IMG/VR virus record: IMGVR_UViG_3300026233_000017
DNA length: 64,000 nucleotides
Reading direction: 5' to 3' (one strand)
DNA from: a virus
Position 1 is the stretch's first letter. Each line of letters opens with the position of its first letter. Both the position numbers and the translations under genes were made by a program. The notes beneath the pieces were generated by a model. That model made no database searches. It was not told the origin of the DNA and was given only the letters and a program-made list of their open reading frames with translations. This document shows, piece after piece, positions 32,453 to 43,362 of the stretch.

Positions 32453-33253
32453 TCAAGGCTTCACTTCGCCTGCTGCCAAGGCTGCGTCACGGTCCAGGCG
32501 CTCCAGCTCGGCGATGATCAGCGCGCCAGATTTCACCAGCTCGCGGCGGCGATCACCCGGCTTGAACGAGGTGGGAAGCCAGCTAAGGGGCCAGAGGCCC
32601 ATGTCGTTGGCGTCGAGCGCAAACCGAGTGAATGGAGGGGTTGCGTACCAAGCTGCTGCGAGTGCGAGTTCGGAACCCTGATACACGTCGTCATGCTTGG
32701 TGGAGCAGCCTTCAGCGCTCACTTGGCGGCGGCGCTCGTCGATCACATCACGCTCGGCTTTGCTCCTCAGCGTCCGGCGTGTAACCACTGCCGGCTCAGC
32801 GGGCGCAGCAGGCGTCTCAGGGCTCGCAACCTGGGCCTTGGCCGATAGCTTGATCAGTTCCTCGGCCAGCTTTTTGATCTGGTCGAGCATGGCCGTCGCG
32901 TCCACGCTGAAGCCCGGTGCGGAGTGGCGGCTGGGCTCGGTCTGTGCGTCGACGCGCGCCGGGGGGCAATCTGTGGGCGCGGGCTTAGCAGGTGCTGTCT
33001 GGATGGCGAGACGCAGTTCGGCCACGCGGTCATCCATCCATCCGTCCCGTGACAAAACGGCGAACAAGCCTTTCTGCCGAGACCATTCGGCGATGACGGC
33101 CTCGCAGGCCGCCACTAAGCCATGGGTCTCAGCACATGCAGAAGGCGCCGTGGCCAGAGCTTCCTTCCACACGATGTTGGCGTTATTGCGGTGCATATGG
33201 CAGTTGAAGCCGGCCAGGAAGAAGTGGCTGTCACGATCAGAAGTTGTGGTCAT
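32453..33253 (-). CDS. Conserved phage hypothetical protein
   Basis: C-terminal 'DVIDERRRQ...DD...ELALAAA..WP..W..FKP..RRELVKSGALIIAELERLDR' module recognisable from temperate phages. Confidence 0.65.
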   Translation of the reverse strand: MTTTSDRDSHFFLAGFNCHMHRNNANIVWKEALATAPSACAETHGLVAACEAVIAEWSRQKGLFAVLSRDGWMDDRVAELRLAIQTAPAKPAPTDCPPARVDAQTEPSRHSAPGFSVDATAMLDQIKKLAEELIKLSAKAQVASPETPAAPAEPAVVTRRTLRSKAERDVIDERRRQVSAEGCSTKHDDVYQGSELALAAAWYATPPFTRFALDANDMGLWPLSWLPTSFKPGDRRRELVKSGALIIAELERLDRDAALAAGEVKP

Positions 33254-35403
33254 TGGCGTGCCTCCTGTTGCTCGGTATTGATGATTTCCAGCTCGGTGTA
33301 GTCGGCGCTCAGGTTCCAGCGCTCGGCCGCGTCCAGGGCGTCTTCGTTGAGCAGGTCGACCTCGGGATCGATGGGCAGCTCGATCAGCCACGCGCGGTCG
33401 CCGAGGCGCTCGGTGACCATGGCCAGGCGTCCCCTGGTGGGCAGGAGCTTCTTGCCGGGTCCGCGCAGGTCGACGCGGATACGGACCTGCTGCAGCGGTT
33501 CAATAGAGTTGGGCGTGGTGACCTCGGCGGCGGCCATCGCGTCGGCGATCGCGCGGCTGGCCTCTGAGGCAGTGGCCTTGCCCTTCTTGAGTTTGGGTGT
33601 GGCCTTGTCTGTGGGTGCTGCCTTGCCTGCGCGTGCGGCGGCCTCGGCTTTCATCTCGTCTTGCACTTGGCTTTGGATCGACTCGAGATCCACGTTGGAC
33701 AGGTCCACCAAGTCCTCGAGGAGTGGATCTCCCTGGTCCAGGCCGAGGGTGCAGCCCATCATGAGCATGTACTGGATCTGAGCGGGTAGATCCTGCTCCG
33801 CGAGATCCTCCAGGGCATTCTCTAGATCCATTTCTGCCCGACCATCCTTGCCGTCCACCTGGAACATGCGGTACAGGAGGCGAGGGGGGGTCTGGACGGC
33901 CAGCAGTTTCAGGATCTGCAGGGCAATGCGGCTGGGAATATGGTCCAGCCCTTCGGGCAGGCACTGCAGGAGCCCGTCGATCGTTGCCTCCGCCGCGCGC
34001 TCGCGCCAGCGCATTTCGTACTCGCGCTGCAGCGCTTCCCGCGTGGGCTCGGCTGGTGGCTCGGCCTGGGCCTTGGCCGCCGCCTGGCGCTCGCCCTTGA
34101 CCTTCACGGACGCGCTGGCGGTGTGCGTTGCCACAGCCTCCACCAGGTTGCCGCTGGGCGCCTCGATCAGCACCACGCTGGCCGCCGGAACGTCCTGGCC
34201 GAGCACCTGGCGCACGGGCGCGCTGCTGCCCTGGCTGGGCTTGTCCAGCAGCAGGTAGCCGCGTGGCGCACCGTTCTCGCTGGGCATGATGTCGCGGGCC
34301 TGGCGGCCGGTGATGATCTGCTGCCCGCGCTGCTGGGCCTGGGCTTTGACGCGGTCGAAGTGGGCCTCTTTTTTGTCGGCAAAGCAGGCGGTGTCAGTAC
34401 AGACGTCTGCATCGCTCTTGTCCCATAGCTCGGGAGACGCGCCTGTGTGCTTGGGGCAGACCGTGCACGCGCCGGCAGCAGGGCACAGGGTCGCGTCGTC
34501 GAGCGCGAAAGGGGCCTGGTCCAGCTTGAGCATGTAGCTGCGGCGTGCCAGGTCCAGCGCGTTGCGGTAGCTCATGGGGCCGTTGTCAGGGCCGCCGGTG
34601 AGCACGCGCTGCGTGTACTCGGCCTGGATGGCCTGCGTGGGCCGCTGGGCCACCAGCAGGGCCACGCTGCGCGTGAGCGTGCCTGCCTTGAGGCCGGTGA
34701 TGGCCTCGGGGCACAACGTCAGCAGACGCAGGGACTCGAACACATGGGTGCGGCTCTTGCGCAGGGCCTCGCCCGCTGTGTCGGCATTCATGCCGTGGTC
34801 TTCGACCAGGCGCTGCACGCCCAGGGCTTCGTCCAGCGGGTTGAGGTCAATGCGGTGCAGGTTTTCGATCAGCTGCATCAGCTGGGCCTGCATGTTGTCC
34901 GCATCCCGCTCGACGATGGGGACGGCACGCAGGCCGGCGATCTGGGCGGCGCGGTAGCGGCGCTCGCCGGCGATGATTTCGTGCGTTGCGTGGCGCGTGG
35001 CCGCGTCCTCGAAGGTGTCCTGCAGGCGCTCGGCCGGCAGGCGGCGCACCAGCAGTGGCTGCAGCACGCCGTACAGCTTCATGGTGGCGGCCATGTCGTG
35101 CAACGCATCGTCCTCGACCACGCGGCGATTGGTGCGGCTGGGCACGATCTGGATGATGGGCAGCGTGGGGTGCTGGCTGGCTGCATCAGCGGGGCCGCGA
35201 TCGTTCACGACCTCGAAGGCATCCATGGGCAGGTTGACAAGGCTGTCGCCCACGGCGATCTGATACTGGCGCCCGCCGGGCGTCTTACCGATCACCTTGC
35301 CGCGCTGGCCGGCCTGGGGGTGGGGCTTGCCACCCTTGCCAGTGGCCTCGGCGCTGATGACGACATCGCGGTCGATCAGGGGGTCTTTACTTTTGGGAGC
35401 CAC
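33250..35403 (-). CDS. Large ParB/Spo0J-domain protein
   Basis: 'GVLQPLLVR', 'IIAGERRYRAA', 'ENLHRIDLNPLDEA'; Cys cluster. Confidence 0.85.
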   Translation of the reverse strand: MAPKSKDPLIDRDVVISAEATGKGGKPHPQAGQRGKVIGKTPGGRQYQIAVGDSLVNLPMDAFEVVNDRGPADAASQHPTLPIIQIVPSRTNRRVVEDDALHDMAATMKLYGVLQPLLVRRLPAERLQDTFEDAATRHATHEIIAGERRYRAAQIAGLRAVPIVERDADNMQAQLMQLIENLHRIDLNPLDEALGVQRLVEDHGMNADTAGEALRKSRTHVFESLRLLTLCPEAITGLKAGTLTRSVALLVAQRPTQAIQAEYTQRVLTGGPDNGPMSYRNALDLARRSYMLKLDQAPFALDDATLCPAAGACTVCPKHTGASPELWDKSDADVCTDTACFADKKEAHFDRVKAQAQQRGQQIITGRQARDIMPSENGAPRGYLLLDKPSQGSSAPVRQVLGQDVPAASVVLIEAPSGNLVEAVATHTASASVKVKGERQAAAKAQAEPPAEPTREALQREYEMRWRERAAEATIDGLLQCLPEGLDHIPSRIALQILKLLAVQTPPRLLYRMFQVDGKDGRAEMDLENALEDLAEQDLPAQIQYMLMMGCTLGLDQGDPLLEDLVDLSNVDLESIQSQVQDEMKAEAAARAGKAAPTDKATPKLKKGKATASEASRAIADAMAAAEVTTPNSIEPLQQVRIRVDLRGPGKKLLPTRGRLAMVTERLGDRAWLIELPIDPEVDLLNEDALDAAERWNLSADYTELEIINTEQQEARQ

Positions 35404-36214: not shown

Positions 36215-36370
36215 TCAGCCTCCGGTGAACAGGTGGATTGCCGAGGCGATGAAAGGGCCTGCGATCAGAGCCGCAGCAATGGCTGCCAGGGCCTGCAGTT
36301 GACGGCGCACGATGCGTTGATGCCGGCGATTGGGGTGCGGCCCATCCAGTTCAATGTGCGGCTTGCTCAT
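36215..36370 (-). CDS. Small C-terminal-TM protein
   Basis: 51 aa. Confidence 0.5.
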   Translation of the reverse strand: MSKPHIELDGPHPNRRHQRIVRRQLQALAAIAAALIAGPFIASAIHLFTGG

Positions 36371-36501
36371 GGCTGCACCCGGATGGCTGATGCGCTGTGC
36401 GCGCGGTGGAAGCACTGCGCCAGGATGACGGCCAGGCCGCCGCTCAAGTAGGCGCCGGTGAACGTGCGGCCGGCGACGCGAACGCGGTAGATGTTCACCA
36501 T
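36367..36501 (-). CDS. Small hypothetical protein (not in ORF track)
   Basis: 44 aa MVNIYRVRVAGRTFTG...; ATGA overlap; fills an operon gap. Confidence 0.45.
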   Translation of the reverse strand: MVNIYRVRVAGRTFTGAYLSGGLAVILAQCFHRAHSASAIRVQP

Positions 36502-37352
36502 GGCCGCACCTCGGTCAGGTTGCCGTAGCAGTCCGGCACCATGTGGATGTTCTCGGACCTGTACAGCCGGCCATGAACAAAGGATGCCGCCGTCCCGATG
36601 TAGAAGGGGGCGCAGACACCTGCGTGGTATCGGTACACGACGAAGGCCTCCAGCTCATATGCCCCGAGGGCGTCGTATTCTTCGCGGACCTTGGCCTGGT
36701 AGCCTTTGGCGCAGTACTCGATCGTGATTGGCAGGGCACCGTGCGCAGGCAGGAGCGTTTTGCATTCCAGCGGGTGGGGCAGCTCGTAGGGCGGCTCGAC
36801 GCCGTTGTTCTCGTCGATGTCGGCCTGCAGCTCCTGCAGCGCATCGCTGGCCGGCCGGAAGATCGGTGGCAGATCGAACAGATCGCGCGTCTTGGGGAGC
36901 CGGTCCGGGTCTGCCAAGGCCTCCAGCTCGGCCAGGCTGAGCGTGGTCATTGCAACGCTGTCGTCGAAGAACGATTTGCCATCCCAGCGCGCCAGGGCGC
37001 CGCCATACACCCATTCGGCTGTGTGTGCGTAGGCCTCGCTCTCAAGCTTGGCGATTTCCGCTTCAGTGCCGTAGAAGAGGGTGGGGCGCTCAGAGCCGCA
37101 GCCGAAGAATAGGCTCTTGGGCATCACGCCACTTTCGCCGTGGCCCACGCTGAAGTAGTCGTCGGTCAGGTAGATGGGTGTGGCATAGGCTTCATCCATC
37201 AGCACGCCGTGTGCATGCCCGGGCTGGCTGATGCTGTGCGAGAGCGCGGCGAGGATCTGCGCGGCCTGTTCCATGCTGCTGACCTGTATGTCGGCCGGCC
37301 TCTCCTGGTGGTGGCCGCATTCCCACTCGGTGAAGTGCAGTGTGAGGTTCAT
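36495..37352 (-). CDS. Acidic hypothetical protein
   Basis: 285 aa from ATG at 37352, coupled to upstream stop. Confidence 0.6.
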   Translation of the reverse strand: MNLTLHFTEWECGHHQERPADIQVSSMEQAAQILAALSHSISQPGHAHGVLMDEAYATPIYLTDDYFSVGHGESGVMPKSLFFGCGSERPTLFYGTEAEIAKLESEAYAHTAEWVYGGALARWDGKSFFDDSVAMTTLSLAELEALADPDRLPKTRDLFDLPPIFRPASDALQELQADIDENNGVEPPYELPHPLECKTLLPAHGALPITIEYCAKGYQAKVREEYDALGAYELEAFVVYRYHAGVCAPFYIGTAASFVHGRLYRSENIHMVPDCYGNLTEVRPW

Positions 37353-37984
37353 GCTGCGCCTCCAGCGACCGCGTGCTCCAGCAGGAAGTCCTGGTCCAGT
37401 TGGTACTGCCTCAAGTACTCCCCGAAATCGACAGCGCCGCCACGGCCGCGCCAGTGAATCAGTTCGCGGAACAGCGCGGGCGAGCTGATGGCCGTTCGGG
37501 CTGTGTCGATAGCGAAATAACGCCGATCGTCTGTGCCGAGCGGGTTGGCATCGCTCGTCACGAAAACGAAATTCAGGCGATTGAGTTCCACGCGGGGGCT
37601 GCGGCCGTTCGCGTGGGTGCGCAAAGCGGGCTGGCTGATCAGGGCTTTGAGCTGGGCCCGCTGTTCCTCCAGTTTCGGGATCTCGTCGAGCCGCACCAGG
37701 CGCTTGCCCGACAGGAATCCATTGATGTGTGAGGTGAGAAGGTCCACGTGGCCCAGCGGCAGGTAGGCGGCGCCGTGGATCAGCGCCATGGCGTCCAGCA
37801 GCATGGCCGTGCCGTTCCCGCGCGGGCCGCGCAGCACCATGGCTTTGGTGAGCTTGCCGTCGGGGTGCTGCAGCGGGTAGGCAAGCCAGGACAGCAGCAG
37901 GCTGGCGGTGATGGGGTTGGGCTGGCCGCCGGGAGCGCTGGTGAGGTGCTCCACCAGGTTGAGCATGGGCTGGACGGTGCTCAT
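37349..37984 (-). CDS. Degenerate paralog of the phage SF3/DUF5906 helicase ATPase domain
   Basis: Aligns with 41725-43362 (VQPML.LV..LTS, WLAYPLQHP, LKALI, DRRY); Walker A is GNGT instead of GAGK. Confidence 0.85.
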   Translation of the reverse strand: MSTVQPMLNLVEHLTSAPGGQPNPITASLLLSWLAYPLQHPDGKLTKAMVLRGPRGNGTAMLLDAMALIHGAAYLPLGHVDLLTSHINGFLSGKRLVRLDEIPKLEEQRAQLKALISQPALRTHANGRSPRVELNRLNFVFVTSDANPLGTDDRRYFAIDTARTAISSPALFRELIHWRGRGGAVDFGEYLRQYQLDQDFLLEHAVAGGAA

Positions 37985-38223
37985 GCTGCACCTCGCAGGC
38001 CCAGCTCCTCGCGGATGCCGGCAACGCTGGTCGTCGCAATCTGGGTTGCGTCATGGGCGCGCGTGATGTCGATGGTGACGCGCACGACGTCGACCTGGCC
38101 GCGCAGCTTCTTCAGCAGCAGGCCGACATCGGTTTCTTGGTGGGGATCGTTCTCGAAGCCGGCGACGAACTGCTCGGCCTCTTGAAGCGCTTCATGGAGC
38201 GCGAGAAGGGGGGCAAGGGACAT
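37981..38223 (-). CDS. First gene of PL operon, hypothetical
   Basis: 80 aa, SD GGAGG. Confidence 0.65.
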   Translation of the reverse strand: MSLAPLLALHEALQEAEQFVAGFENDPHQETDVGLLLKKLRGQVDVVRVTIDITRAHDATQIATTSVAGIREELGLRGAA

Positions 38224-38257
38224 GGAACCTCCAGCGCCCGGAATGGGCGTGGAGGCG

Positions 38258-38332
38258 ATTATTTCCCCGGTGGGTAAAGTTGTCTATACCCTCTGGGGAA
38301 AGTTGTGGCTTTCTACTCAGCCCTTTGGGGAA
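38258..38332 (-). promoter_or_regulatory. PL promoter and OL operators
   Basis: TAGACA-17-AATAAT on minus strand; operator-like 15-mers at 38263, 38286, 38318. Confidence 0.75.
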
Positions 38333-38796
38333 GCTTTCTCAGCGTTCGCAGCCATCCTTACCGTTGCGTCGCTCAAGTCCGCCAGCATCAGACTCATCTC
38401 TTTCCCCACTCTGGCAAAGATGAACACCAACAAGCCACCAGCGATGCCTCCGATCGCGGCAGGAAATCCGGCCCGCATGGAAAGCGACAACCCGCCGAGC
38501 AGGATCAGGACTGCGAGAACGACGCCGCACCAGTAGAGCAGGTTGGCTACGGCCCTGAACGTGGGATAGATGCTCGCCGCGCGCAGGGTGTCCACAAACT
38601 CTGCTGGGTCTACGTCGGTGCCATCACCCGCTGTTTGTTGACGGATGGGGGCTACAGGCACGGCACGCCGTGGGGCCTGGGTCTGCGCAACCGCTTCCAC
38701 CTTGCTGTAGATGGCGCCGCAGTGAGGGCATGCCAGGGTGGTTGATGGATCGATAGAAGCGGTCTGGCCGCACTTTAGACATTGCTTTGAGATCAC
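38317..38796 (-). CDS. Zn-ribbon plus two-TM membrane protein downstream of cI
   Basis: CxxC...CPHC at N-terminus, two TM helices; SD GGAGGAGG. Confidence 0.75.
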   Translation of the reverse strand: MISKQCLKCGQTASIDPSTTLACPHCGAIYSKVEAVAQTQAPRRAVPVAPIRQQTAGDGTDVDPAEFVDTLRAASIYPTFRAVANLLYWCGVVLAVLILLGGLSLSMRAGFPAAIGGIAGGLLVFIFARVGKEMSLMLADLSDATVRMAANAEKASPKG

Positions 38797-38856
38797 CTGA
38801 CAACCTCCTCCCGGTTCCGTTGTTTGAAGATATAGATCCTGGCTGAAGCGCGCTTT

Positions 38857-39276
38857 TCAGGCTGCGCTTCTATGGCTTTTTGTGAGGGCGTCTGCCTCCC
38901 GTGTCTCCACTACAGCTTGCACGGTAGCGTTGAGTCGTATCCAGTCTTCCCGCGTAAGCGCGTCAAGCCTGGCTCGGGCGATTGTGAAAGGCCAATCAAC
39001 TGGTGCGGATTGCGCGGGCTCCTGCTCGCGTTTGTGCACGTTGTCCATCCATCCGACCTCGAGCTGCAGCTTGTCCTCCATCTCCCGCGCCATGGGGCTG
39101 CCCATGTTGTAAGGCTTGCCTCCCCGGTCGTGCCTTACGTTGGCGTTGAGTATTCGGGTGAGCGTGGCGGTCTCGTTCCGGGCATAGCCCAGCTTCTCGC
39201 AAAGGTTCGCCATCCCGGCGTGCTGGTCGACCAGCACTTGCAGGTTGGCGCGCCTAATTTCTTCAACAGTTCGCAT
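38857..39276 (-). CDS. cI: Immunity repressor (CI-like HTH, no S24 domain)
   Basis: 'EEIRRANLQVLVDQHAG..LCEKLG....LTRIL...MGSPMAREMEDKL..GWMD'; divergent from cro. Confidence 0.8.
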   Translation of the reverse strand: MRTVEEIRRANLQVLVDQHAGMANLCEKLGYARNETATLTRILNANVRHDRGGKPYNMGSPMAREMEDKLQLEVGWMDNVHKREQEPAQSAPVDWPFTIARARLDALTREDWIRLNATVQAVVETREADALTKSHRSAA

Positions 39277-39289
39277 CCGGGCGATTCCA

Positions 39290-39357
39290 CTGTCCACGGG
39301 GGAAAAAGAAAATTCCCCAATGGGTCTTGCGTTACTTTCCCCATTGGGGAATAAAAT
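39290..39357 (+). promoter_or_regulatory. OR operators and PR promoter
   Basis: Perfect TTCCCCA-T-TGGGGAA at 39337-39351, variants at 39313 and 39290; TTGCGT...TAAAAT. Confidence 0.75.
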
Positions 39358-39364
39358 GCGCGCC

Positions 39365-39637
39365 ATGGACCTACTCAAATCTTGGTTGACCGGCGGGAGA
39401 GGGCGTTGCGCCGGGTTGGCGCGCCACCTCAACGTCTCGCCCTCGTTCGTGAACAAGATGGCGAACGGCGAGCGGCCCATCCCTGCCGAGCACGGGGCTG
39501 ACATTGAGAAATTCACCTTGGGTGCGGTCTCCCGCCCAGCGATGTTCCCTGTGCGGTGGAAACGGATCTGGCCCGAGATGTTGGATGCTGCGACGCAGGG
39601 CGCGGCCGCTCTTGACGTCGGGGATGGCAATGCATAG
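39365..39637 (+). CDS. cro: Cro/YdaS-family regulator
   Basis: 'LARHLNVSPSFVNKMANGERPIPAEH..IEKFT.GAVSR..MFP..W..IW'. Confidence 0.85.
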   Translation: MDLLKSWLTGGRGRCAGLARHLNVSPSFVNKMANGERPIPAEHGADIEKFTLGAVSRPAMFPVRWKRIWPEMLDAATQGAAALDVGDGNA

Positions 39638-39851
39638 GCCCATCACCCGCCGCAACATGTTGGTTGCTGTACTTGCGATGTCGTGGGTCAGGACAGCCAG
39701 GCCGACCCACGCACGTGCGCCCATCTTCCCGGCTCTCGCCAGCGACGTCGCTGCGTTGGACGCCGTCAGGCTCTCCGATCGCTGGATCGATTGGCGCGCT
39801 ACGCGCCCGACCCACTCACTGCCGCCCCGTGCAGCCCGGTCAGCAGAGTAG
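39630..39851 (+). CDS. Possible small ORF after cro
   Basis: 73 aa overlapping cro stop; conflicts with the antisense gene. Confidence 0.25.
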   Translation: MHRPITRRNMLVAVLAMSWVRTARPTHARAPIFPALASDVAALDAVRLSDRWIDWRATRPTHSLPPRAARSAE

Positions 39852-40035
39852 CCGTGGCCACATCTCCTTCTTTTTCCGCTGCCGCGCCGAAGGTGGCAAG
39901 CGCTTCCGCGAAGCGCCGCTGCTCGGCCGCCGGCAAGTGCTGCACGGCCAGCATGGTCAGCGCGCCCAGCGCCGCCTCGATGGCGTCGATGCGCTGCAGG
40001 GCCTCCTCGAGGCGCAGTGGTGTGTTGGCCGGCAT
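39799..40035 (-). CDS. Antisense helical protein between cro and CII-like gene
   Basis: 78 aa, SD AAAGGA, phage-like codon usage. Confidence 0.6.
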   Translation of the reverse strand: MPANTPLRLEEALQRIDAIEAALGALTMLAVQHLPAAEQRRFAEALATFGAAAEKEGDVATATLLTGLHGAAVSGSGA

Positions 40036-40136
40036 GGGTGTGTCCTTTCTTGGTTTCGTGGTTGCCAGGGGCGTGTTCCGCCCCGGGCGCATTTTCCGCC
40101 CGGCGCCCGTCATGGGCCTGGGCGGCTTTTTCTTGC

Positions 40137-40180
40137 GAGGTTTCGGTGCATGGGTTCATGCACCGAAGTCTCTTTTTTTT
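40137..40180 (+). terminator. tR1-like terminator
   Basis: 11-bp perfect stem (16 with wobbles) then T8. Confidence 0.7.
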
Positions 40181-40194
40181 GCCTCGTCGAGGCA

Positions 40195-40231
40195 TTCCGA
40201 ACGGTTCCGAAAGATTCGGAACCGTTCGGAA
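40195..40231. repeat. 17-bp perfect inverted repeat
   Basis: TTCCGAACGGTTCCGAA-aga-TTCGGAACCGTTCGGAA. Confidence 0.9.
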
Positions 40232-40272
40232 CGGGGCCGGAAACCGGCCGGATCACAGTAGAGAGGTGACCC

Positions 40273-40662
40273 ATGGATGACGATGAAATCCTGATGTATG
40301 ACGATGAGTTAGACGCGGCCAAGGCGGCCGTGCAGCGCCTGGGCGGCGCCAAGAAGGTGGGCGAGATGCTCTACCCGGAGAAGACGCCCGAGGCCGCCGC
40401 GCGATACCTGCTGGATGCGCTCAACCCCTCGCGTTCCGAGCGGCTGAACCCGGGCCAGGTGCTGTTACTGATGCGCAAGGCGCGCGAGATCGGCTTCCAC
40501 GGCCTGGCGGCTTTCTATATGCGTGGCGCTGGATATGCCCCTCCAGTGCCGCTGGACCCTGTCACCGAGACAGCGCGCATGGCGCACGCACTGGAGCGTG
40601 TCATGGGTACAGCGCTGCAGATCGCAGCTCAGCTCCGGCAGATGAACGGGGGCAAAGACTGA
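40273..40662 (+). CDS. CII-like regulatory protein
   Basis: 'GGAKKVGEMLYP...LLDALNP...ERLNPGQVLLLM'; position after cro. Confidence 0.65.
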   Translation: MDDDEILMYDDELDAAKAAVQRLGGAKKVGEMLYPEKTPEAAARYLLDALNPSRSERLNPGQVLLLMRKAREIGFHGLAAFYMRGAGYAPPVPLDPVTETARMAHALERVMGTALQIAAQLRQMNGGKD

Positions 40663-41732
40663 TGGACAACTATCAGGACGTCCTGCACCAGATGGAGCAG
40701 TTCGGTATCGAGCTGCGCGATCGGGACCGCAGTGTCATGCCAGACCGCATCCGGGCCGGCCGCAAGACGACTTGCGGCGCCGGTGGCAAGGACTGGTTCA
40801 AGATGTACTTGTTCCGGCCCGATGCCGGCGGAGAGTATGTGGTTGGCGCCTTTGGCACCTACCGCCGGGGCGGCGACTGGCAAAAGGTCGAGGTGGATTG
40901 GGCGCCGCTGTCCGAGGCCGAGCGCGCTCGCCAGGCGGCCCACCGCAAGGCGCTTGCCGAGGCCGCAGCCACTGAGCGTGCCCAGGAGATCGCCAACGCT
41001 GCTGCCGAGGCCATCGATATCTGGCGCAAGGGTGTGCGCGTGGGCACGACGCCCTATCTGGATCGCAAGCAGGTGCAGGGCGAGGCCTTCCGCGCGCTCG
41101 ATCGCCAACTGTCCCTGCGCTGGCCTTCCCGCAAGCACGGGGAGGAAGATGTGGTGGTGCGCCTGCCCGCAGGCACCACGCTGCTGCCCCTGGTGCGGCC
41201 GGATCTGCCACGCGACCAGGCGCTGCGCGGCCTGCAGTTCATCCGCCCCGATGGCGTGAAGATCTACCTACGGGCCTTCGACAAGCCGGGCTGCTGCATC
41301 CGGCTCGGCGATATCGACGGCACTAGCACTGCGCTGCTGATGGTGGTAGAGGGCTATGCCACGGGCCTGACAGCCCGCATGGCGGTCGACCGCGAGCACC
41401 CTGTGTTCGTGGCCCTGGACGCGGGCAACCTGGCCGAAGTGGTGCGCGTGCTTCGCGGCCTGTACCCGTCCACACGCATCCTGATCCTGGCCGATGACGA
41501 CTACATGACCCGGGACAAGCGCACGGGCGCGCTGATCAACCCGGGCCGCACGGCCGCTGCCCGCGCCGCCAAGGCCACGGACGGTTGCGACCTGGTCTGG
41601 CCCATCTTCAAGGCCTCGACACGGGGGCCGAAGGATACCGACTTCAACGATCTGCACGTCCTCGAGGGCCTGGACGTGGTGCGCCGGCAACTGGTGGGCG
41701 TGGTCGAGGCGATGGCGAGGCGGTATGGCTGA
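40662..41732 (+). CDS. TOPRIM-domain DNA primase
   Basis: 'YLDRK', 'GLQFI', 'VVEGYATG', 'VALDAGNL', 'LADDD', 'DFNDLH'. Confidence 0.88.
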   Translation: MDNYQDVLHQMEQFGIELRDRDRSVMPDRIRAGRKTTCGAGGKDWFKMYLFRPDAGGEYVVGAFGTYRRGGDWQKVEVDWAPLSEAERARQAAHRKALAEAAATERAQEIANAAAEAIDIWRKGVRVGTTPYLDRKQVQGEAFRALDRQLSLRWPSRKHGEEDVVVRLPAGTTLLPLVRPDLPRDQALRGLQFIRPDGVKIYLRAFDKPGCCIRLGDIDGTSTALLMVVEGYATGLTARMAVDREHPVFVALDAGNLAEVVRVLRGLYPSTRILILADDDYMTRDKRTGALINPGRTAAARAAKATDGCDLVWPIFKASTRGPKDTDFNDLHVLEGLDVVRRQLVGVVEAMARRYG

Positions 41733-43362
41733 GCACACCGACGACATCAACGCGGGCGGGGCCTCGTTTCCGCCACTGCCGCCACCGCATGCGACCGAAG
41801 AGTCGCATGCTTCGTCGGCTCTCGGCGCGCCAGCGCCGCTGGATAACTCTGTCGTGCACGTCGACTTTCAGGCGGGCGTGCGCGTGCCGGGCGAGGCGCA
41901 GGCCGAGCCATCTTCTTCGCGCCCCCGCCCCCCCAAAGTAAGCGCAGCTGCGCGCGACTCTGGGGATGGGGGTGGCAAGGCCGATCCGCCGGTGCAGGGC
42001 AAGAAAAAAGAGAAGACGGTCGATTGGGGGAAGTTCAACCACCTGGCCGAGAACTTCGTGCTGATCTACGGTACCGACACCGTCTGGGATGGTGCTGAGC
42101 GGTTGATCATGAAGATCGCCAACATGGGCCACGCCCATGGCGCCGACATGGTCCGCATGTGGAAGGCCAGCGAGAAGCGCAAGACGGTGCGGCTGGAGGA
42201 CGTGGTGTTTGACCCGACCCTCAAGGTCGATCCGGCCAACAGCGTGAATCTCTACGACGGTATGGCGATGGTGCCAAAAGAGGGTGACGTCCAGCCCATG
42301 CTTGAGCTGGTCTCGTTTCTGACAAGCCGCGCCACTTCTGATGAAGCCGATACGGGCGACATCATGCACTGGCTGTTGTGCTGGTTGGCCTATCCACTCC
42401 AGCACCCTGGCGCCAAGCTGCGCACGGCCGTGGTCATGCATGGCGATGAAGGTGCCGGCAAGAACTTCCTGTTTGACATCATGGTCGCGCTGTACGGCAA
42501 GTACGGCGCGCTGGTTGGCCAGGATGAACTGGAGGACAAGCACAACGATTGGCGCAGCTGCAAGCTGTTCGTGGTGGGCGACGAAGTGTCCAGCCGGGCC
42601 GAGCTGGTCCACAACAAGAACCGGCTCAAGGCGTTGATCACATCGCCCACGGTGCAGATCAACCCAAAGCACCTGACCCGGCGCGAAGAGAAGAACCACA
42701 TGAACATCGTGTTTCTCTCGAACGAGCTGCAGCCGCTGGCCCTGGACAACTCGGACCGGCGCTACCTGGTCGTCTACACGCCCAGGGCGAAGGACTTCGA
42801 GTATTACAAGGCGCTCGGCGAATGGCGAGACAACGGCGGTATCGAGGCCTTCTACCACTACCTGCTGAACTACCCGCTGGGCGACTTCCATGCGTATGCC
42901 CCGGCCCCCATGACTGACGCCAAGTCGGCACTGATTGCCATCAACCGCAAGAGCCCTGAGCTGTTCTGGTCGGAATGGCAGGCGGGTGAGCTGGATCTGC
43001 CGTATCACTCCTGCGCCGTCACCCAGGCTTATGCCGCCTACCTGAAGTGGTGCCAGCGGACTGGAGACCGCTACCCCTTCCCCCAGAAGGCGTTCACGCC
43101 CACCGTGATTCGGTTTGCGGAGGGGCAGGGCCAGCCAATGCGCTCGAAGCCCATGAACGTTGTGCGGCCTGGTCAAGCCAAGAAGACCGAGCGCATGTTG
43201 TTGGTGACGGAGCCGATTCTGGGCGAGGGCGAGCAGCGCATGACTGAAGGCGATTGGGCCACCTCGGCCGTTCGTGAGTTTGCGGATGCGCTGCGCAAGT
43301 ACGCGGGGTATGGCAGCGGCTCCCCGGCCCCTCAAGGGCAAGAGCCAGAGGTAGGTCAGTGA
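41725..43362 (+). CDS. SF3/D5-like (DUF5906) replicative helicase
   Basis: Walker A GDEGAGKN, Walker B VVGDE, motif C FLSN, DRRY. Confidence 0.88.
   Translation: MAEHTDDINAGGASFPPLPPPHATEESHASSALGAPAPLDNSVVHVDFQAGVRVPGEAQAEPSSSRPRPPKVSAAARDSGDGGGKADPPVQGKKKEKTVDWGKFNHLAENFVLIYGTDTVWDGAERLIMKIANMGHAHGADMVRMWKASEKRKTVRLEDVVFDPTLKVDPANSVNLYDGMAMVPKEGDVQPMLELVSFLTSRATSDEADTGDIMHWLLCWLAYPLQHPGAKLRTAVVMHGDEGAGKNFLFDIMVALYGKYGALVGQDELEDKHNDWRSCKLFVVGDEVSSRAELVHNKNRLKALITSPTVQINPKHLTRREEKNHMNIVFLSNELQPLALDNSDRRYLVVYTPRAKDFEYYKALGEWRDNGGIEAFYHYLLNYPLGDFHAYAPAPMTDAKSALIAINRKSPELFWSEWQAGELDLPYHSCAVTQAYAAYLKWCQRTGDRYPFPQKAFTPTVIRFAEGQGQPMRSKPMNVVRPGQAKKTERMLLVTEPILGEGEQRMTEGDWATSAVREFADALRKYAGYGSGSPAPQGQEPEVGQ

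What the first reader, a model, noticed from the sequence alone, without database searches (positions are those of the whole stretch)
37349..37984. Probably dead copy of the phage's own helicase ATPase domain, expressed from the opposite early promoter
Seen: the 211-aa ORF aligns end to end with the ATPase domain of 41725-43362 (VQPMLNLVEHLTS/VQPMLELVSFLTS; WLAYPLQHP in both; LKALI; DRRY; W...GG...F..YL). Walker A lysine is lost (GPRGNGT vs GDEGAGK), motif C Asn becomes Asp (VTSD vs FLSN), Walker B DE is kept, and the N- and C-terminal domains are missing. The ORF is intact, coupled and second in the PL operon, which argues for selection. Known: SF3 helicases are hexamers poisoned by Walker A mutants. 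Inference: a dominant-negative subunit (replication brake or lysis-lysogeny bias, exclusion of related phages or satellites) or a decoy for defences that sense phage helicases.
Basis: partly seen in the sequence, partly recalled or inferred. Interest (0 to 1): 0.8.

Follow-up and report, generated by a model that had tools for sequence, protein, structure and literature searches.

The report
Dead mini-copy of phage helicase motor
This temperate phage carries, beside its working replication helicase, a small second copy of only the helicase's ATP motor that has lost its ATP-hydrolysis residues yet is kept by selection; the same arrangement recurs in dozens of related phages, which points to an undescribed family of non-enzymatic helicase look-alikes whose job has not been tested.

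Summary
ORF 37349-37984 (-) encodes 211 aa that align over residues 4-196 with residues 189-385 of the phage's D5/NrS-1-type SF3 helicase (41725-43362): 37% identity, E 1e-30. It folds as a complete SF3 ATPase core (pLDDT 89.6; TM 0.77 to the NrS-1 helicase). It lacks the collar and C-terminal domains. The Walker A Lys is Thr, the motif C Asn is Ser, and Walker B DE and the Arg-finger pair RR are kept.

It is not decaying. At least 11 distinct relatives are intact and all carry the same K-to-T change. dN/dS is 0.28-0.43, with bootstrap intervals below 1.

It is also not a one-off. Positional orthologs in sister phages lost different catalytic residues. A second clade of short copies, paired with fused primase-helicases, lost the Walker B Glu and motif C Asn but kept RR in 25 of 25. 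Among library representatives, 109 of 109 long proteins keep all motifs, while 25 of 26 short ones carry a lesion.

The gene is accessory, evolves fast and reassorts independently of the helicase.

The function is inferred only. Most likely it is a non-catalytic subunit mimic acting on D5-type helicase rings. Decoy, anti-competitor and unrelated new roles remain open. I found no paper describing this family. The scan noted the same family once before, in another genome.

The parts
37349..37984 (-). Short helicase paralog, 211 aa. It consists of the SF3 (DUF5906) ATPase core only. Walker A Lys is Thr, motif C Asn is Ser, and Walker B DE and the Arg-finger pair RR are kept.
37981..38223 (-). First gene of the leftward operon, 80 aa, joined to the short paralog by an ATGA overlap. 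Its N-terminal 55 aa are conserved in relatives. Its C-terminus differs between phages (76, 80 or 132 aa).
   Evidence: no Pfam, PHROG or PADLOC hit
38258..38301 (-). PL-like promoter (TAGACA, 17 nt, AATAAT) inside an operator-like inverted repeat (38262-38279 and 38284-38301) of the TTCCCC..GGGGAA type.
   Evidence: consensus matches only, function not shown
39312..39352 (.). Perfect 13-nt inverted repeat (ATTCCCCAATGGG / CCCATTGGGGAAT) between the repressor and cro-like genes. It carries the same motif as the repeat at the PL-like promoter.
38857..39276 (-). CI-like repressor gene. The ATG at 39276 gives about 139 aa.
   Evidence: 98.6% identical in L034; relatives carry HTH_3 proteins at this position
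38317..38796 (-). Zn-ribbon and membrane protein (weak DUF4282 hit) downstream of the repressor gene and upstream of the PL-like promoter.
41725..43362 (+). Full-length D5/NrS-1-type SF3 helicase, 545 aa, with all catalytic motifs intact. This is the parent paralog.
40662..41732 (+). Separate Toprim primase, 356 aa, whose gene overlaps the start of the helicase gene.
36495..37352 (-). 285-aa gene joined to the end of the short paralog by an ATGA overlap. It is absent from every related phage fetched, so it is a window-specific insertion.
   Evidence: no family hit
33250..35403 (-). ParB_N + HTH_ParB protein, 717 aa, in the same leftward operon. It recurs beside short paralogs in other phages.

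Best explanation
The gene encodes a pseudo-ATPase. It is an old, truncated duplicate of the phage's own D5/NrS-1-type SF3 helicase that keeps the whole ATPase core fold but cannot hydrolyse ATP, and in this allele probably cannot bind it. It lacks the collar domain that holds hexamers together and the C-terminal domain. It is made early, from the repressor-controlled leftward operon, while the real helicase is made from the rightward one. The proposed mechanism is inferred. The protein docks on a helicase protomer through the normal subunit-subunit face of the ATPase ring, presenting its conserved Arg fingers to the neighbour's ATP site. Because it has neither catalysis nor a collar, it would act as a non-catalytic cap or odd subunit that changes ring assembly or stalls the coordinated hydrolysis cycle. 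That would tune or limit replication by D5-type helicases. Shown here: homology, fold, loss of catalytic residues, purifying selection, recurrence and pairing with an active long paralog. Inferred: binding to the helicase and the effect on replication.
For: Paralogy: 37% identity, E 1e-30. Fold: pLDDT 89.6, Foldseek TM 0.77 to the NrS-1 helicase hexamer subunit.

Catalytic loss is conserved: all 8 protein clusters at 68-74% identity read GPRGNGT. NrS-1 K453A is dead, and R555/R556 are trans-acting fingers.

Selection: dN/dS is 0.28-0.43, and 0 of 1000 bootstraps reach 1. Group B, which has lost every motif, still shows 0.19-0.34.

Pairing: every contig that covers both operons also holds an intact long helicase. 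The same holds in 16 loci of a second clade.

Pattern of loss: 109 of 109 long representatives keep K, N and RR. Of 26 short representatives, 4 keep the motif C Asn, but both Arg are kept in 23 of 26 (first Arg 23, second Arg 25). In the second clade RR is kept in 25 of 25, while the Walker B Glu survives in 1 of 25 and the motif C Asn in 3 of 25. Keeping the trans-acting residues while the cis-acting ones erode is what a subunit that still meets a neighbour's active site would show.

Conservation within group A is concentrated in residues 1-60 and 171-200, the segments most like the long helicase.

Subunit mixing with dead mutants poisons an SF3 AAA+ ring.
Against: No binding evidence of any kind was obtained. 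The gene is accessory: about 9 of roughly 45 sister phages carry it, which argues against an essential loader or timer.

Short and long copies reassort. Window against L034: long 99% aa, short 71%. L034 against L036: long 89%, short 96%. So there is no sign of co-evolution with the helicase.

Group B has lost the Arg fingers and still evolves under constraint, so the Arg-finger face cannot be the whole story. The RR motif could be kept for structural reasons. An isolated ATPase core without a collar may not join rings at all.
Confidence: 0.38

Rival explanations
1. Weapon against competing replicons. The dead core targets D5-type helicases of other elements that are active during the helper's lytic cycle (superinfecting or co-resident sister phages, or satellites with P4/PICI-type primase-helicases). 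The phage's own helicase would be spared.
For: The gene is accessory and fast-evolving, sits in a local divergence hot spot (79% nt against 94% in the flanks), and reassorts independently of the phage's own helicase. This profile is typical of conflict genes. DUF5906 helicases are common in satellites (papers listed).
Against: No competitor or satellite was identified. The gene sits in an operon that looks repressed in the lysogen, so it cannot exclude superinfection from the prophage state. There is no obvious way for the phage's own helicase to escape.
Confidence: 0.18
2. Immune decoy. The protein mimics the helicase ATPase fold to occupy or blunt a host sensor that recognises phage replicative ATPases.
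For: Avs20 senses the RecA-type ATPase domain of phage primase-helicases independently of catalysis (bioRxiv 10.64898/2026.01.04.697583), so fold sensing of replication ATPases exists. The surfaces conserved in the short copy are those shared with the long helicase. Early expression, accessory status and fast evolution all fit an anti-defence gene.
Against: No sensor for SF3/D5-type cores is known. A faithful mimic would be expected to trigger rather than block a pattern-recognition receptor. There is no PADLOC or anti-defence family match. The strict retention of the Arg fingers is not explained.
Confidence: 0.15
3. New function unrelated to the helicase. The dead P-loop domain has become a binding module for another partner in the leftward operon, such as the coupled 80-aa protein or the large ParB-like protein, or for a host protein.
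For: The gene is translationally coupled to a small upstream gene in four contexts (window; L087, L088 and L089). A 620-720-aa ParB_N/HTH_ParB protein lies in the same operon each time, and only one small gene away in L087 and L089. The variable C-terminus of the 80-aa protein is swapped together with the short gene. Group B fused a 180-aa unrelated extension and lost the Arg fingers.
Against: The shared gene order may only reflect shared ancestry of these phages. This reading does not explain why RR is kept in 25 of 25 second-clade members, nor why a long paralog is present wherever the contig covers both operons.
Confidence: 0.2
4. It is still an NTPase with non-canonical catalytic residues.
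For: The degenerate P-loop GPRGNGTAMLLD is nearly invariant in group A, so it is under constraint. Walker B DE is kept.
Against: The Lys-to-Ala change alone abolishes activity in NrS-1 and FMDV 2C. The residue after the Lys position is Ala. The motif C Asn is also lost. Sister groups lost different residues, and group B lost all of them.
Confidence: 0.05
5. It is a functionless remnant on its way to loss.
For: It is absent from most sister phages, and its rate of amino-acid change is high.
Against: It is intact in all of at least 11 group A sequences and in groups B and C. dN/dS is clearly below 1. GC3 is 0.84 with normal codon periodicity. Translational coupling is conserved.
Confidence: 0.04

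Closest known systems
NrS-1 phage polymerase C-terminal helicase (PDB 6K9C/6K9E/6LRB) and poxvirus D5/E5: the DUF5906 SF3 helicase core
   Same: Homologous ATPase core: profile E 4e-17 and Foldseek TM 0.77. The WL.WLA.P.Q segment before strand 1, the Walker B motif and the DRR[YF] Arg-finger motif are shared.
   Different: The short protein has no collar (Head/D5_N) domain and no C-terminal (Tail/Pox_D5) domain. The Walker A Lys and motif C Asn are replaced. The Lys of the DNA-binding hairpin in the central channel is not conserved.
The phage's own helicase (41725-43362) and its orthologs in Comamonadaceae prophages
   Same: The ATPase cores are 37% identical. The short clade branches at the base of this helicase lineage. 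The two are always encoded together.
   Different: 211 aa against 545 aa. The short copy is dead where the long one is intact in 109 of 109 representatives. dN is about 3 to 50 times higher, depending on the phage pair. The short copy is accessory and lies in the opposite early operon.
Inactive AAA+ paralogs that partner active rings: clamp-loader delta-prime (HolB), Mg-chelatase BchD, eukaryotic MCM-BP (my own knowledge; MCM-BP and BchD were also the top Swiss-Prot fold hits)
   Same: All are paralogs of an active ATPase that have lost cis catalytic residues but remain under selection. Delta-prime likewise keeps its Arg finger and donates it to a neighbour's site. MCM-BP binds helicase subunits and regulates assembly and unloading.
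   Different: Those proteins are proven, stoichiometric or chaperone-type partners. Here binding is unproven, the gene is accessory, and the fold matches are only generic AAA+ similarity (TM about 0.5).
Engineered Walker A or motif C mutants of SF3 proteins (FMDV 2C, PMC2915670; papillomavirus E1 and SV40 LTag from my own knowledge)
   Same: The same residues are hit. Such mutants poison mixed rings, and a motif C Asn mutant binds ATP and locks hexamers.
   Different: Those are full-length laboratory mutants. This is a natural, truncated, separately encoded gene.
Natural short forms of viral initiator-helicases: AAV Rep52/Rep40, T7 gp4B, HSV-1 OBPC (UL8.5) against UL9, and P4 Cnr as a regulator of the alpha primase-helicase (my own knowledge; the OBPC analogy is taken from earlier scan note e1-141297)
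   Same: In each case a virus makes a second, smaller product related to or acting on its replicative helicase in order to modulate replication or packaging.
   Different: Rep52/40 and gp4B are in-frame isoforms and are catalytically active. OBPC keeps the DNA-binding domain, not the motor. Cnr is not a paralog of alpha.

Membership tests
Pfam DUF5906 (PF19263), ATPase domain of D5/NrS-1-type SF3 helicases | Match to the family HMM above the curated gathering score | tested here: met
   34.2 bits against a cutoff of 27.6, covering profile positions 1-114 of 114
Pfam DUF5906 (PF19263), ATPase domain of D5/NrS-1-type SF3 helicases | SF3 AAA+ alpha/beta core fold | tested here: met
   AF2 model with pLDDT 89.6 and pTM 0.87. 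The top 10 PDB hits are all NrS-1 helicase chains, TM 0.73-0.77, followed by PriRep1, mpox E5, vaccinia D5 and the SaPI5 primase-helicase.
Functional SF3 replicative helicase | Walker A GxxxxGK[S/T/N] with the catalytic Lys | tested here: not met
   The motif reads GPRGNGTA. The Lys is Thr in the window copy and all 8 protein clusters of group A. It is Lys in 109 of 109 long representatives.
Functional SF3 replicative helicase | Walker B acidic pair (DE) | tested here: met
   LDEI in the window and FDE in relatives
Functional SF3 replicative helicase | Motif C (sensor 1) Asn | tested here: not met
   VTSD against FLSN. The position is S, G, T or A across group A. It is Asn in 109 of 109 long representatives.
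Functional SF3 replicative helicase | Trans-acting Arg finger(s) | tested here: met
   The DRRY motif aligns with NrS-1 R555/R556
Functional SF3 replicative helicase | Collar/oligomerisation domain (D5_N) and C-terminal domain flanking the core | tested here: not met
   The protein starts 3 residues before the core alignment and ends about 15 residues after it
Functional SF3 replicative helicase | NTPase and unwinding activity | not testable with these tools
   Requires biochemistry
Inactive AAA+ partner subunits (delta-prime, BchD or MCM-BP type) / dominant-negative subunit | Paralog of an active ATPase encoded in the same genome | tested here: met
Inactive AAA+ partner subunits (delta-prime, BchD or MCM-BP type) / dominant-negative subunit | Loss of cis catalytic residues under continued purifying selection | tested here: met
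Inactive AAA+ partner subunits (delta-prime, BchD or MCM-BP type) / dominant-negative subunit | Physical association with the active paralog and an effect on its activity | not testable with these tools
   Requires pull-down, mixed-oligomer analysis and activity titration

The most novel reading that the evidence does not exclude
Temperate phages with D5-type replicases have repeatedly evolved stand-alone, hydrolysis-dead copies of the helicase motor that keep only the trans-acting Arg-finger face. They use these copies as diffusible 'ring poisons' or mimics in conflicts between genetic elements, either disabling the replicases of rival phages and satellites or blinding host sensors of the helicase fold. 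This would be a new class of phage-encoded replication-interference proteins derived from the target enzyme itself.
Probability: 0.25. Interest if true: 0.85.

Novelty: new variant of a known kind. Interest (0 to 1): 0.62.

Why it matters
Catalytically dead paralogs that regulate their active relatives are well known in cells, for example in clamp loaders, ORC, MCM-BP and pseudokinases. None has been described for phage SF3/D5-type helicases. NCBI sources name these proteins simply 'primase-helicase family protein'.

This work shows a reproducible rule: short stand-alone copies are dead, long copies are intact. The rule holds across two clades and dozens of phages, and the trans-acting Arg fingers are selectively kept. 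That gives a sharp, cheap hypothesis to test, namely that the short protein binds and modulates the hexameric helicase.

If confirmed, it would reveal a natural inhibitor or modulator design for D5-type helicases. This enzyme class is shared by poxviruses, ASFV, satellites and many phages. It would also add a new category to phage accessory early genes.

If instead the protein is a decoy or an anti-competitor weapon, it would open a new chapter in phage-host or phage-phage conflict.

Tried and rejected
1. Complex prediction of the short protein with helicase residues 95-420 gave no verdict. It counts neither for nor against binding.

2. RNA evidence for expression.

3. The window's own assembly is not held, so no whole-genome search was possible.

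4. GenBank phages. There is no close relative by DNA. The best protein hits with 'hypothetical protein' labels (Moraxella Mcat1, Enterobacter Mulvp2) turned out to be long genes of 2664 and 2310 nt, presumably primase-helicases, not short forms.

5. An Atlas lead suggested that the 180-aa C-terminal extension of group B might be a remnant of the helicase's Pox_D5-type C-terminal domain. hhalign against the long helicase's C- and N-terminal regions gave probabilities of 1.8% and 0.3%, so the lead was rejected.

6. PHROGs has no family for the short form, only long primase families. PADLOC has no match.

7. Literature searches used the terms DUF5906, inactive helicase paralog, pseudoenzyme plus phage plus helicase, and SF3 dominant-negative. 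None describes this family.

8. One origin for all short forms is rejected as unproven. The tree needs at least 3 changes of the short/long label.

9. Co-evolution of the short and long copies is rejected, because their identities are discordant between phage pairs.

10. Several contig look-ups for second-clade members returned contigs of only 1-2 kb. These show complete stand-alone genes but give no wider context.
Full report
WHAT THE WINDOW IS

The 64-kb window is a circular phage genome of 43,252 bp written about 1.48 times. Positions 1-20748 equal 43253-64000 with no mismatch.

The finding lies in the immunity and early region. On the minus strand the order is:
- a CI-like repressor (38857-39276);
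- a Zn-ribbon membrane protein with a weak DUF4282 hit (38317-38796);
- a 94-nt gap;
- an 80-aa ORF (37981-38223);
- the 211-aa ORF of the finding (37349-37984);
- a 285-aa ORF (36495-37352);
- several small ORFs;
- a 717-aa ParB_N/HTH_ParB protein (33250-35403).

On the plus strand the order is a cro-like gene, a 129-aa ORF, a Toprim primase (40662-41732) and a 545-aa helicase (41725-43362), followed by the terminase genes.

CHECK OF THE OBSERVATION

- BLASTP aligns residues 4-196 of the short protein with residues 189-385 of the helicase: 37% identity, E 1e-30.
- Both proteins match Pfam DUF5906 above the gathering score. DUF5906 is the ATPase domain of poxvirus D5 and of the phage NrS-1 helicase (PMC9611036).
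- The Walker A motif reads GPRGNGTA against GDEGAGKN. Motif C reads VTSD against FLSN. Walker B DE and the DRRY motif are kept.
- The helicase's first 188 and last 160 residues have no counterpart in the short protein.
- ATGA overlaps couple the gene to both neighbours.
- The only sigma-70-like promoter match in 36300-40400 sits just upstream of the 80-aa ORF. It lies inside an inverted repeat of the same TTCCCC..GGGGAA type as the perfect palindromes between the repressor and cro-like genes.

The description 'second gene of a repressor-controlled leftward early operon' is therefore reasonable. No expression data could be obtained.

IS IT A REAL, FOLDED, DEAD ATPase CORE?

An AlphaFold2 model built on a 48-row alignment has mean pLDDT 89.6 and pTM 0.87. 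Its ten best PDB matches are all chains of the NrS-1 helicase hexamer (TM 0.73-0.77). PriRep1, mpox E5, vaccinia D5 and the SaPI5 primase-helicase follow. A sequence profile also finds NrS-1 at E 4e-17.

In NrS-1, Lys453 of the Walker A motif is the residue replaced here. K453A abolishes NTPase activity completely. Arg555 and Arg556 are the equivalent of DRRY. They are finger residues thought to reach the neighbouring subunit's nucleotide, and their mutation lowers activity 7- and 15-fold (PMC7102993).

In the SF3 protein FMDV 2C, single Walker A, Walker B or motif C substitutions each abolish ATPase activity. The motif C Asn mutant still binds ATP and locks hexamers. Mixing dead with active subunits depresses activity more than linearly (PMC2915670).

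With both the Lys and the Asn gone, and Ala after the Lys position, the window's protein is very probably unable to hydrolyse ATP and probably unable to bind it. This step is inferred from homologs and was not measured.

IS IT KEPT BY SELECTION?

- A search of 5.8 billion proteins finds eight clusters of 209-212 aa at 68-74% identity. All are intact and all read GPRGNGT.
- Five viral contigs carry the same gene.
- Nei-Gojobori dN/dS between the four distinct DNA sequences available is 0.23-0.48. For the three divergent pairs it is 0.28-0.43, with bootstrap 95% intervals of 0.19-0.64, and none of 1000 resamples reaches 1.
- GC at codon position 3 is 0.84 against 0.45 at position 2.
- The helicase itself shows dN/dS of 0.016-0.14. 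The short copy is therefore constrained, but much less tightly than the helicase.
- Conservation within the group is concentrated in residues 1-60 (41 of 60 invariant) and 171-200. These are the segments most like the helicase. The middle of the protein drifts, including the loop that carries the Lys of the DNA-binding hairpin in NrS-1.

EVOLUTIONARY SETTING

In phages whose helicase is 68-95% identical to the window's by tblastn, the same slot holds three very different versions of the gene. The slot lies after the DUF4282 gene and the 80-aa ORF, and before conserved small ORFs and ParB.

- Group A (the window and L034-L038): the Lys is Thr, the motif C Asn is lost, and DE and RR are kept.
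- Group B (L039-L041): 46% identical to A. The Lys is Gln, DE has become DK, RR is lost, and a 180-aa extension of unknown origin has been added.
- Group C (L004/L043 and L045): 33% identical to A. GKS is kept, Walker B is degenerate, the motif C Asn is Gly, and RR is kept.

A tree puts A and B together with full support. A, B, C and four further short proteins form one all-short clade (SH-aLRT 94) that branches near the base of this helicase lineage. This indicates one old duplication followed by independent erosion of different catalytic residues.

The gene is also a local divergence hot spot. Against L034 the flanks are 94% identical in DNA and the helicase 99% in protein, but the short gene is 79% identical in DNA and 71% in protein. 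L034 and L036 show the opposite pattern: the short copy is 96% identical and the helicase 89%. The two genes therefore reassort and do not co-evolve.

Only about 9 of roughly 45 distinct sister phages whose fetched flanks cover the slot carry a short copy. It is an accessory gene.

A GENERAL RULE

An exhaustive HMMER search of 1.84 billion representatives returned 150 relatives. I read the catalytic columns from an HMM alignment.

- All 109 proteins of 450 aa or more keep the Walker A Lys, the motif C Asn and both Arg.
- Of the 26 proteins of 290 aa or less with full domain coverage, 16 keep the Lys and 4 keep the Asn. Only one (P0016) has every motif. The first Arg is kept in 23 and the second in 25, so both are kept in 23.

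The short proteins that are not in the window's clade form a second clade (SH-aLRT 96), plus two stragglers.

Scanning viral contigs with that second clade gave 25 distinct short proteins:
- 22 keep the Lys;
- 1 keeps the Walker B Glu, which is Gly in 21;
- 3 keep the motif C Asn;
- all 25 keep RR.

In 16 loci a fused primase-helicase of 900-1000 aa with intact motifs lies on the opposite strand 4-9 kb away.

Contig look-ups for other short members show complete stand-alone genes in the same kind of leftward operon, with a repressor, a DUF4282 protein, a small coupled ORF and a large ParB-like protein. One of these contigs also shows the matching primase of the rightward operon.

The window's gene is therefore one member of a recurrent class: stand-alone, hydrolysis-dead copies of a D5-type helicase core, paired with an active long copy in the opposite early operon.

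HOW IT MOST LIKELY WORKS

In SF3 rings the ATP site is shared. Walker A, Walker B and motif C come from one subunit and the Arg finger from the next. The short copies lose the first set in many different ways and keep the second almost without exception. That is the signature of a protein that still meets a neighbour's active site but no longer runs its own, as clamp-loader delta-prime does (my own knowledge).

My best reading, at confidence about 0.38, is a non-catalytic, collar-less subunit mimic. It would dock on protomers of a D5-type helicase and alter ring assembly or stall coordinated hydrolysis.

Three results count against a simple 'brake on its own helicase':
- the gene is accessory;
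- it reassorts against an almost invariant helicase;
- group B has lost the Arg fingers yet remains constrained.

I therefore give real weight to three rivals:
- a weapon against the D5-type replicases of competing phages or satellites (0.18);
- an immune decoy (0.15). Fold sensing of phage replicative ATPases independent of catalysis is documented for Avs20, although for RecA-type cores, not SF3 cores;
- a new role with another partner, such as the coupled small protein or the ParB-like protein (0.20).

Residual activity (0.05) and decay (0.04) are unlikely.

COMPARISON WITH WHAT IS KNOWN

By homology the protein belongs to the DUF5906 domain family. It fails three defining features of a functional SF3 helicase: the Walker A Lys, the motif C Asn and the flanking domains.

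Its closest functional analogs are:
- inactive AAA+ partner subunits (delta-prime, BchD, MCM-BP). MCM-BP and BchD were, perhaps by coincidence, the top Swiss-Prot fold matches;
- laboratory dominant-negative SF3 mutants;
- natural short forms of viral initiator-helicases (AAV Rep52/40, T7 gp4B, HSV OBPC).

None of these is a separately encoded, dead, motor-only paralog in a phage.

Five literature searches found no description of this family. NCBI sources name members 'primase-helicase family protein'.

An earlier first-stage note of this scan saw the same family in another genome (e1-3598073). Earlier follow-ups described motor-less mini-copies of MCM-like helicases in T1-like phages. Partial helicase paralogs may therefore be a wider theme in phages.

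VERDICT

- Novelty: a new variant of a known kind.
- Interest: 0.62.

Noticed in passing
window 1-64000: The window is a 43,252-bp circular phage genome written about 1.48 times. Positions 1-20748 repeat exactly at 43253-64000, so every feature below 20749 appears twice.
   Followed up: yes
window 36495-37352 (-): A 285-aa gene is coupled by an ATGA overlap to the end of the short helicase copy. It is absent from all eight related phage loci compared, whose sequence continues directly with the equivalent of window ~36500. It has no Pfam, PHROG or PADLOC match. It looks like a moron-type insertion.
   Followed up: partly
window 37981-38223 (-); L034 7606-8004; L039 7771-8001: The first gene of the leftward operon has a conserved N-terminal 55 aa but a C-terminus that differs completely between phages (80, 132 or 76 aa). 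This variable part is exchanged together with the short helicase copy.
   Followed up: partly
L039 8598-9140, L040, L041: Group B short copies carry an in-frame 180-aa C-terminal extension with no detectable homology to the helicase's own N- or C-terminal domains, or to any family searched. Its dN/dS is 0.34-0.44.
   Followed up: partly
window 33250-35403 (-); L087 3851-5791; L088 5446-7614; L089 4952-6808: A large (618-722 aa) ParB_N + HTH_ParB protein recurs in the same leftward operon as the short helicase copies. In two contigs only one ~70-aa gene separates them. Its role in these phages is unknown.
   Followed up: no
window 37790-37984 (first 65 codons of the short gene): Synonymous divergence is 3-5 times lower in the first 65 codons than in the rest of the gene (window-L034 dS 0.16 against 0.75-0.84; window-L037 0.33 against 0.87-1.10). 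This suggests either a recombination joint inside the gene or an extra constraint on this stretch of DNA or RNA.
   Followed up: no
window 39312-39352 and 38262-38301: Operator-like palindromes of the type TTCCCC-N-GGGGAA occur as a perfect 13-nt inverted repeat between the repressor and cro-like genes, and as an imperfect one around the -35 of the leftward promoter.
   Followed up: partly
model m72cbcd32413c (window 37349-37984): Among reviewed UniProt structures the best fold matches are MCM-binding protein and the Mg-chelatase 67-kDa (BchD) subunit. Both are themselves inactive AAA+ paralogs that partner active rings. The TM-scores are only about 0.5, so this may be coincidence.
   Followed up: no
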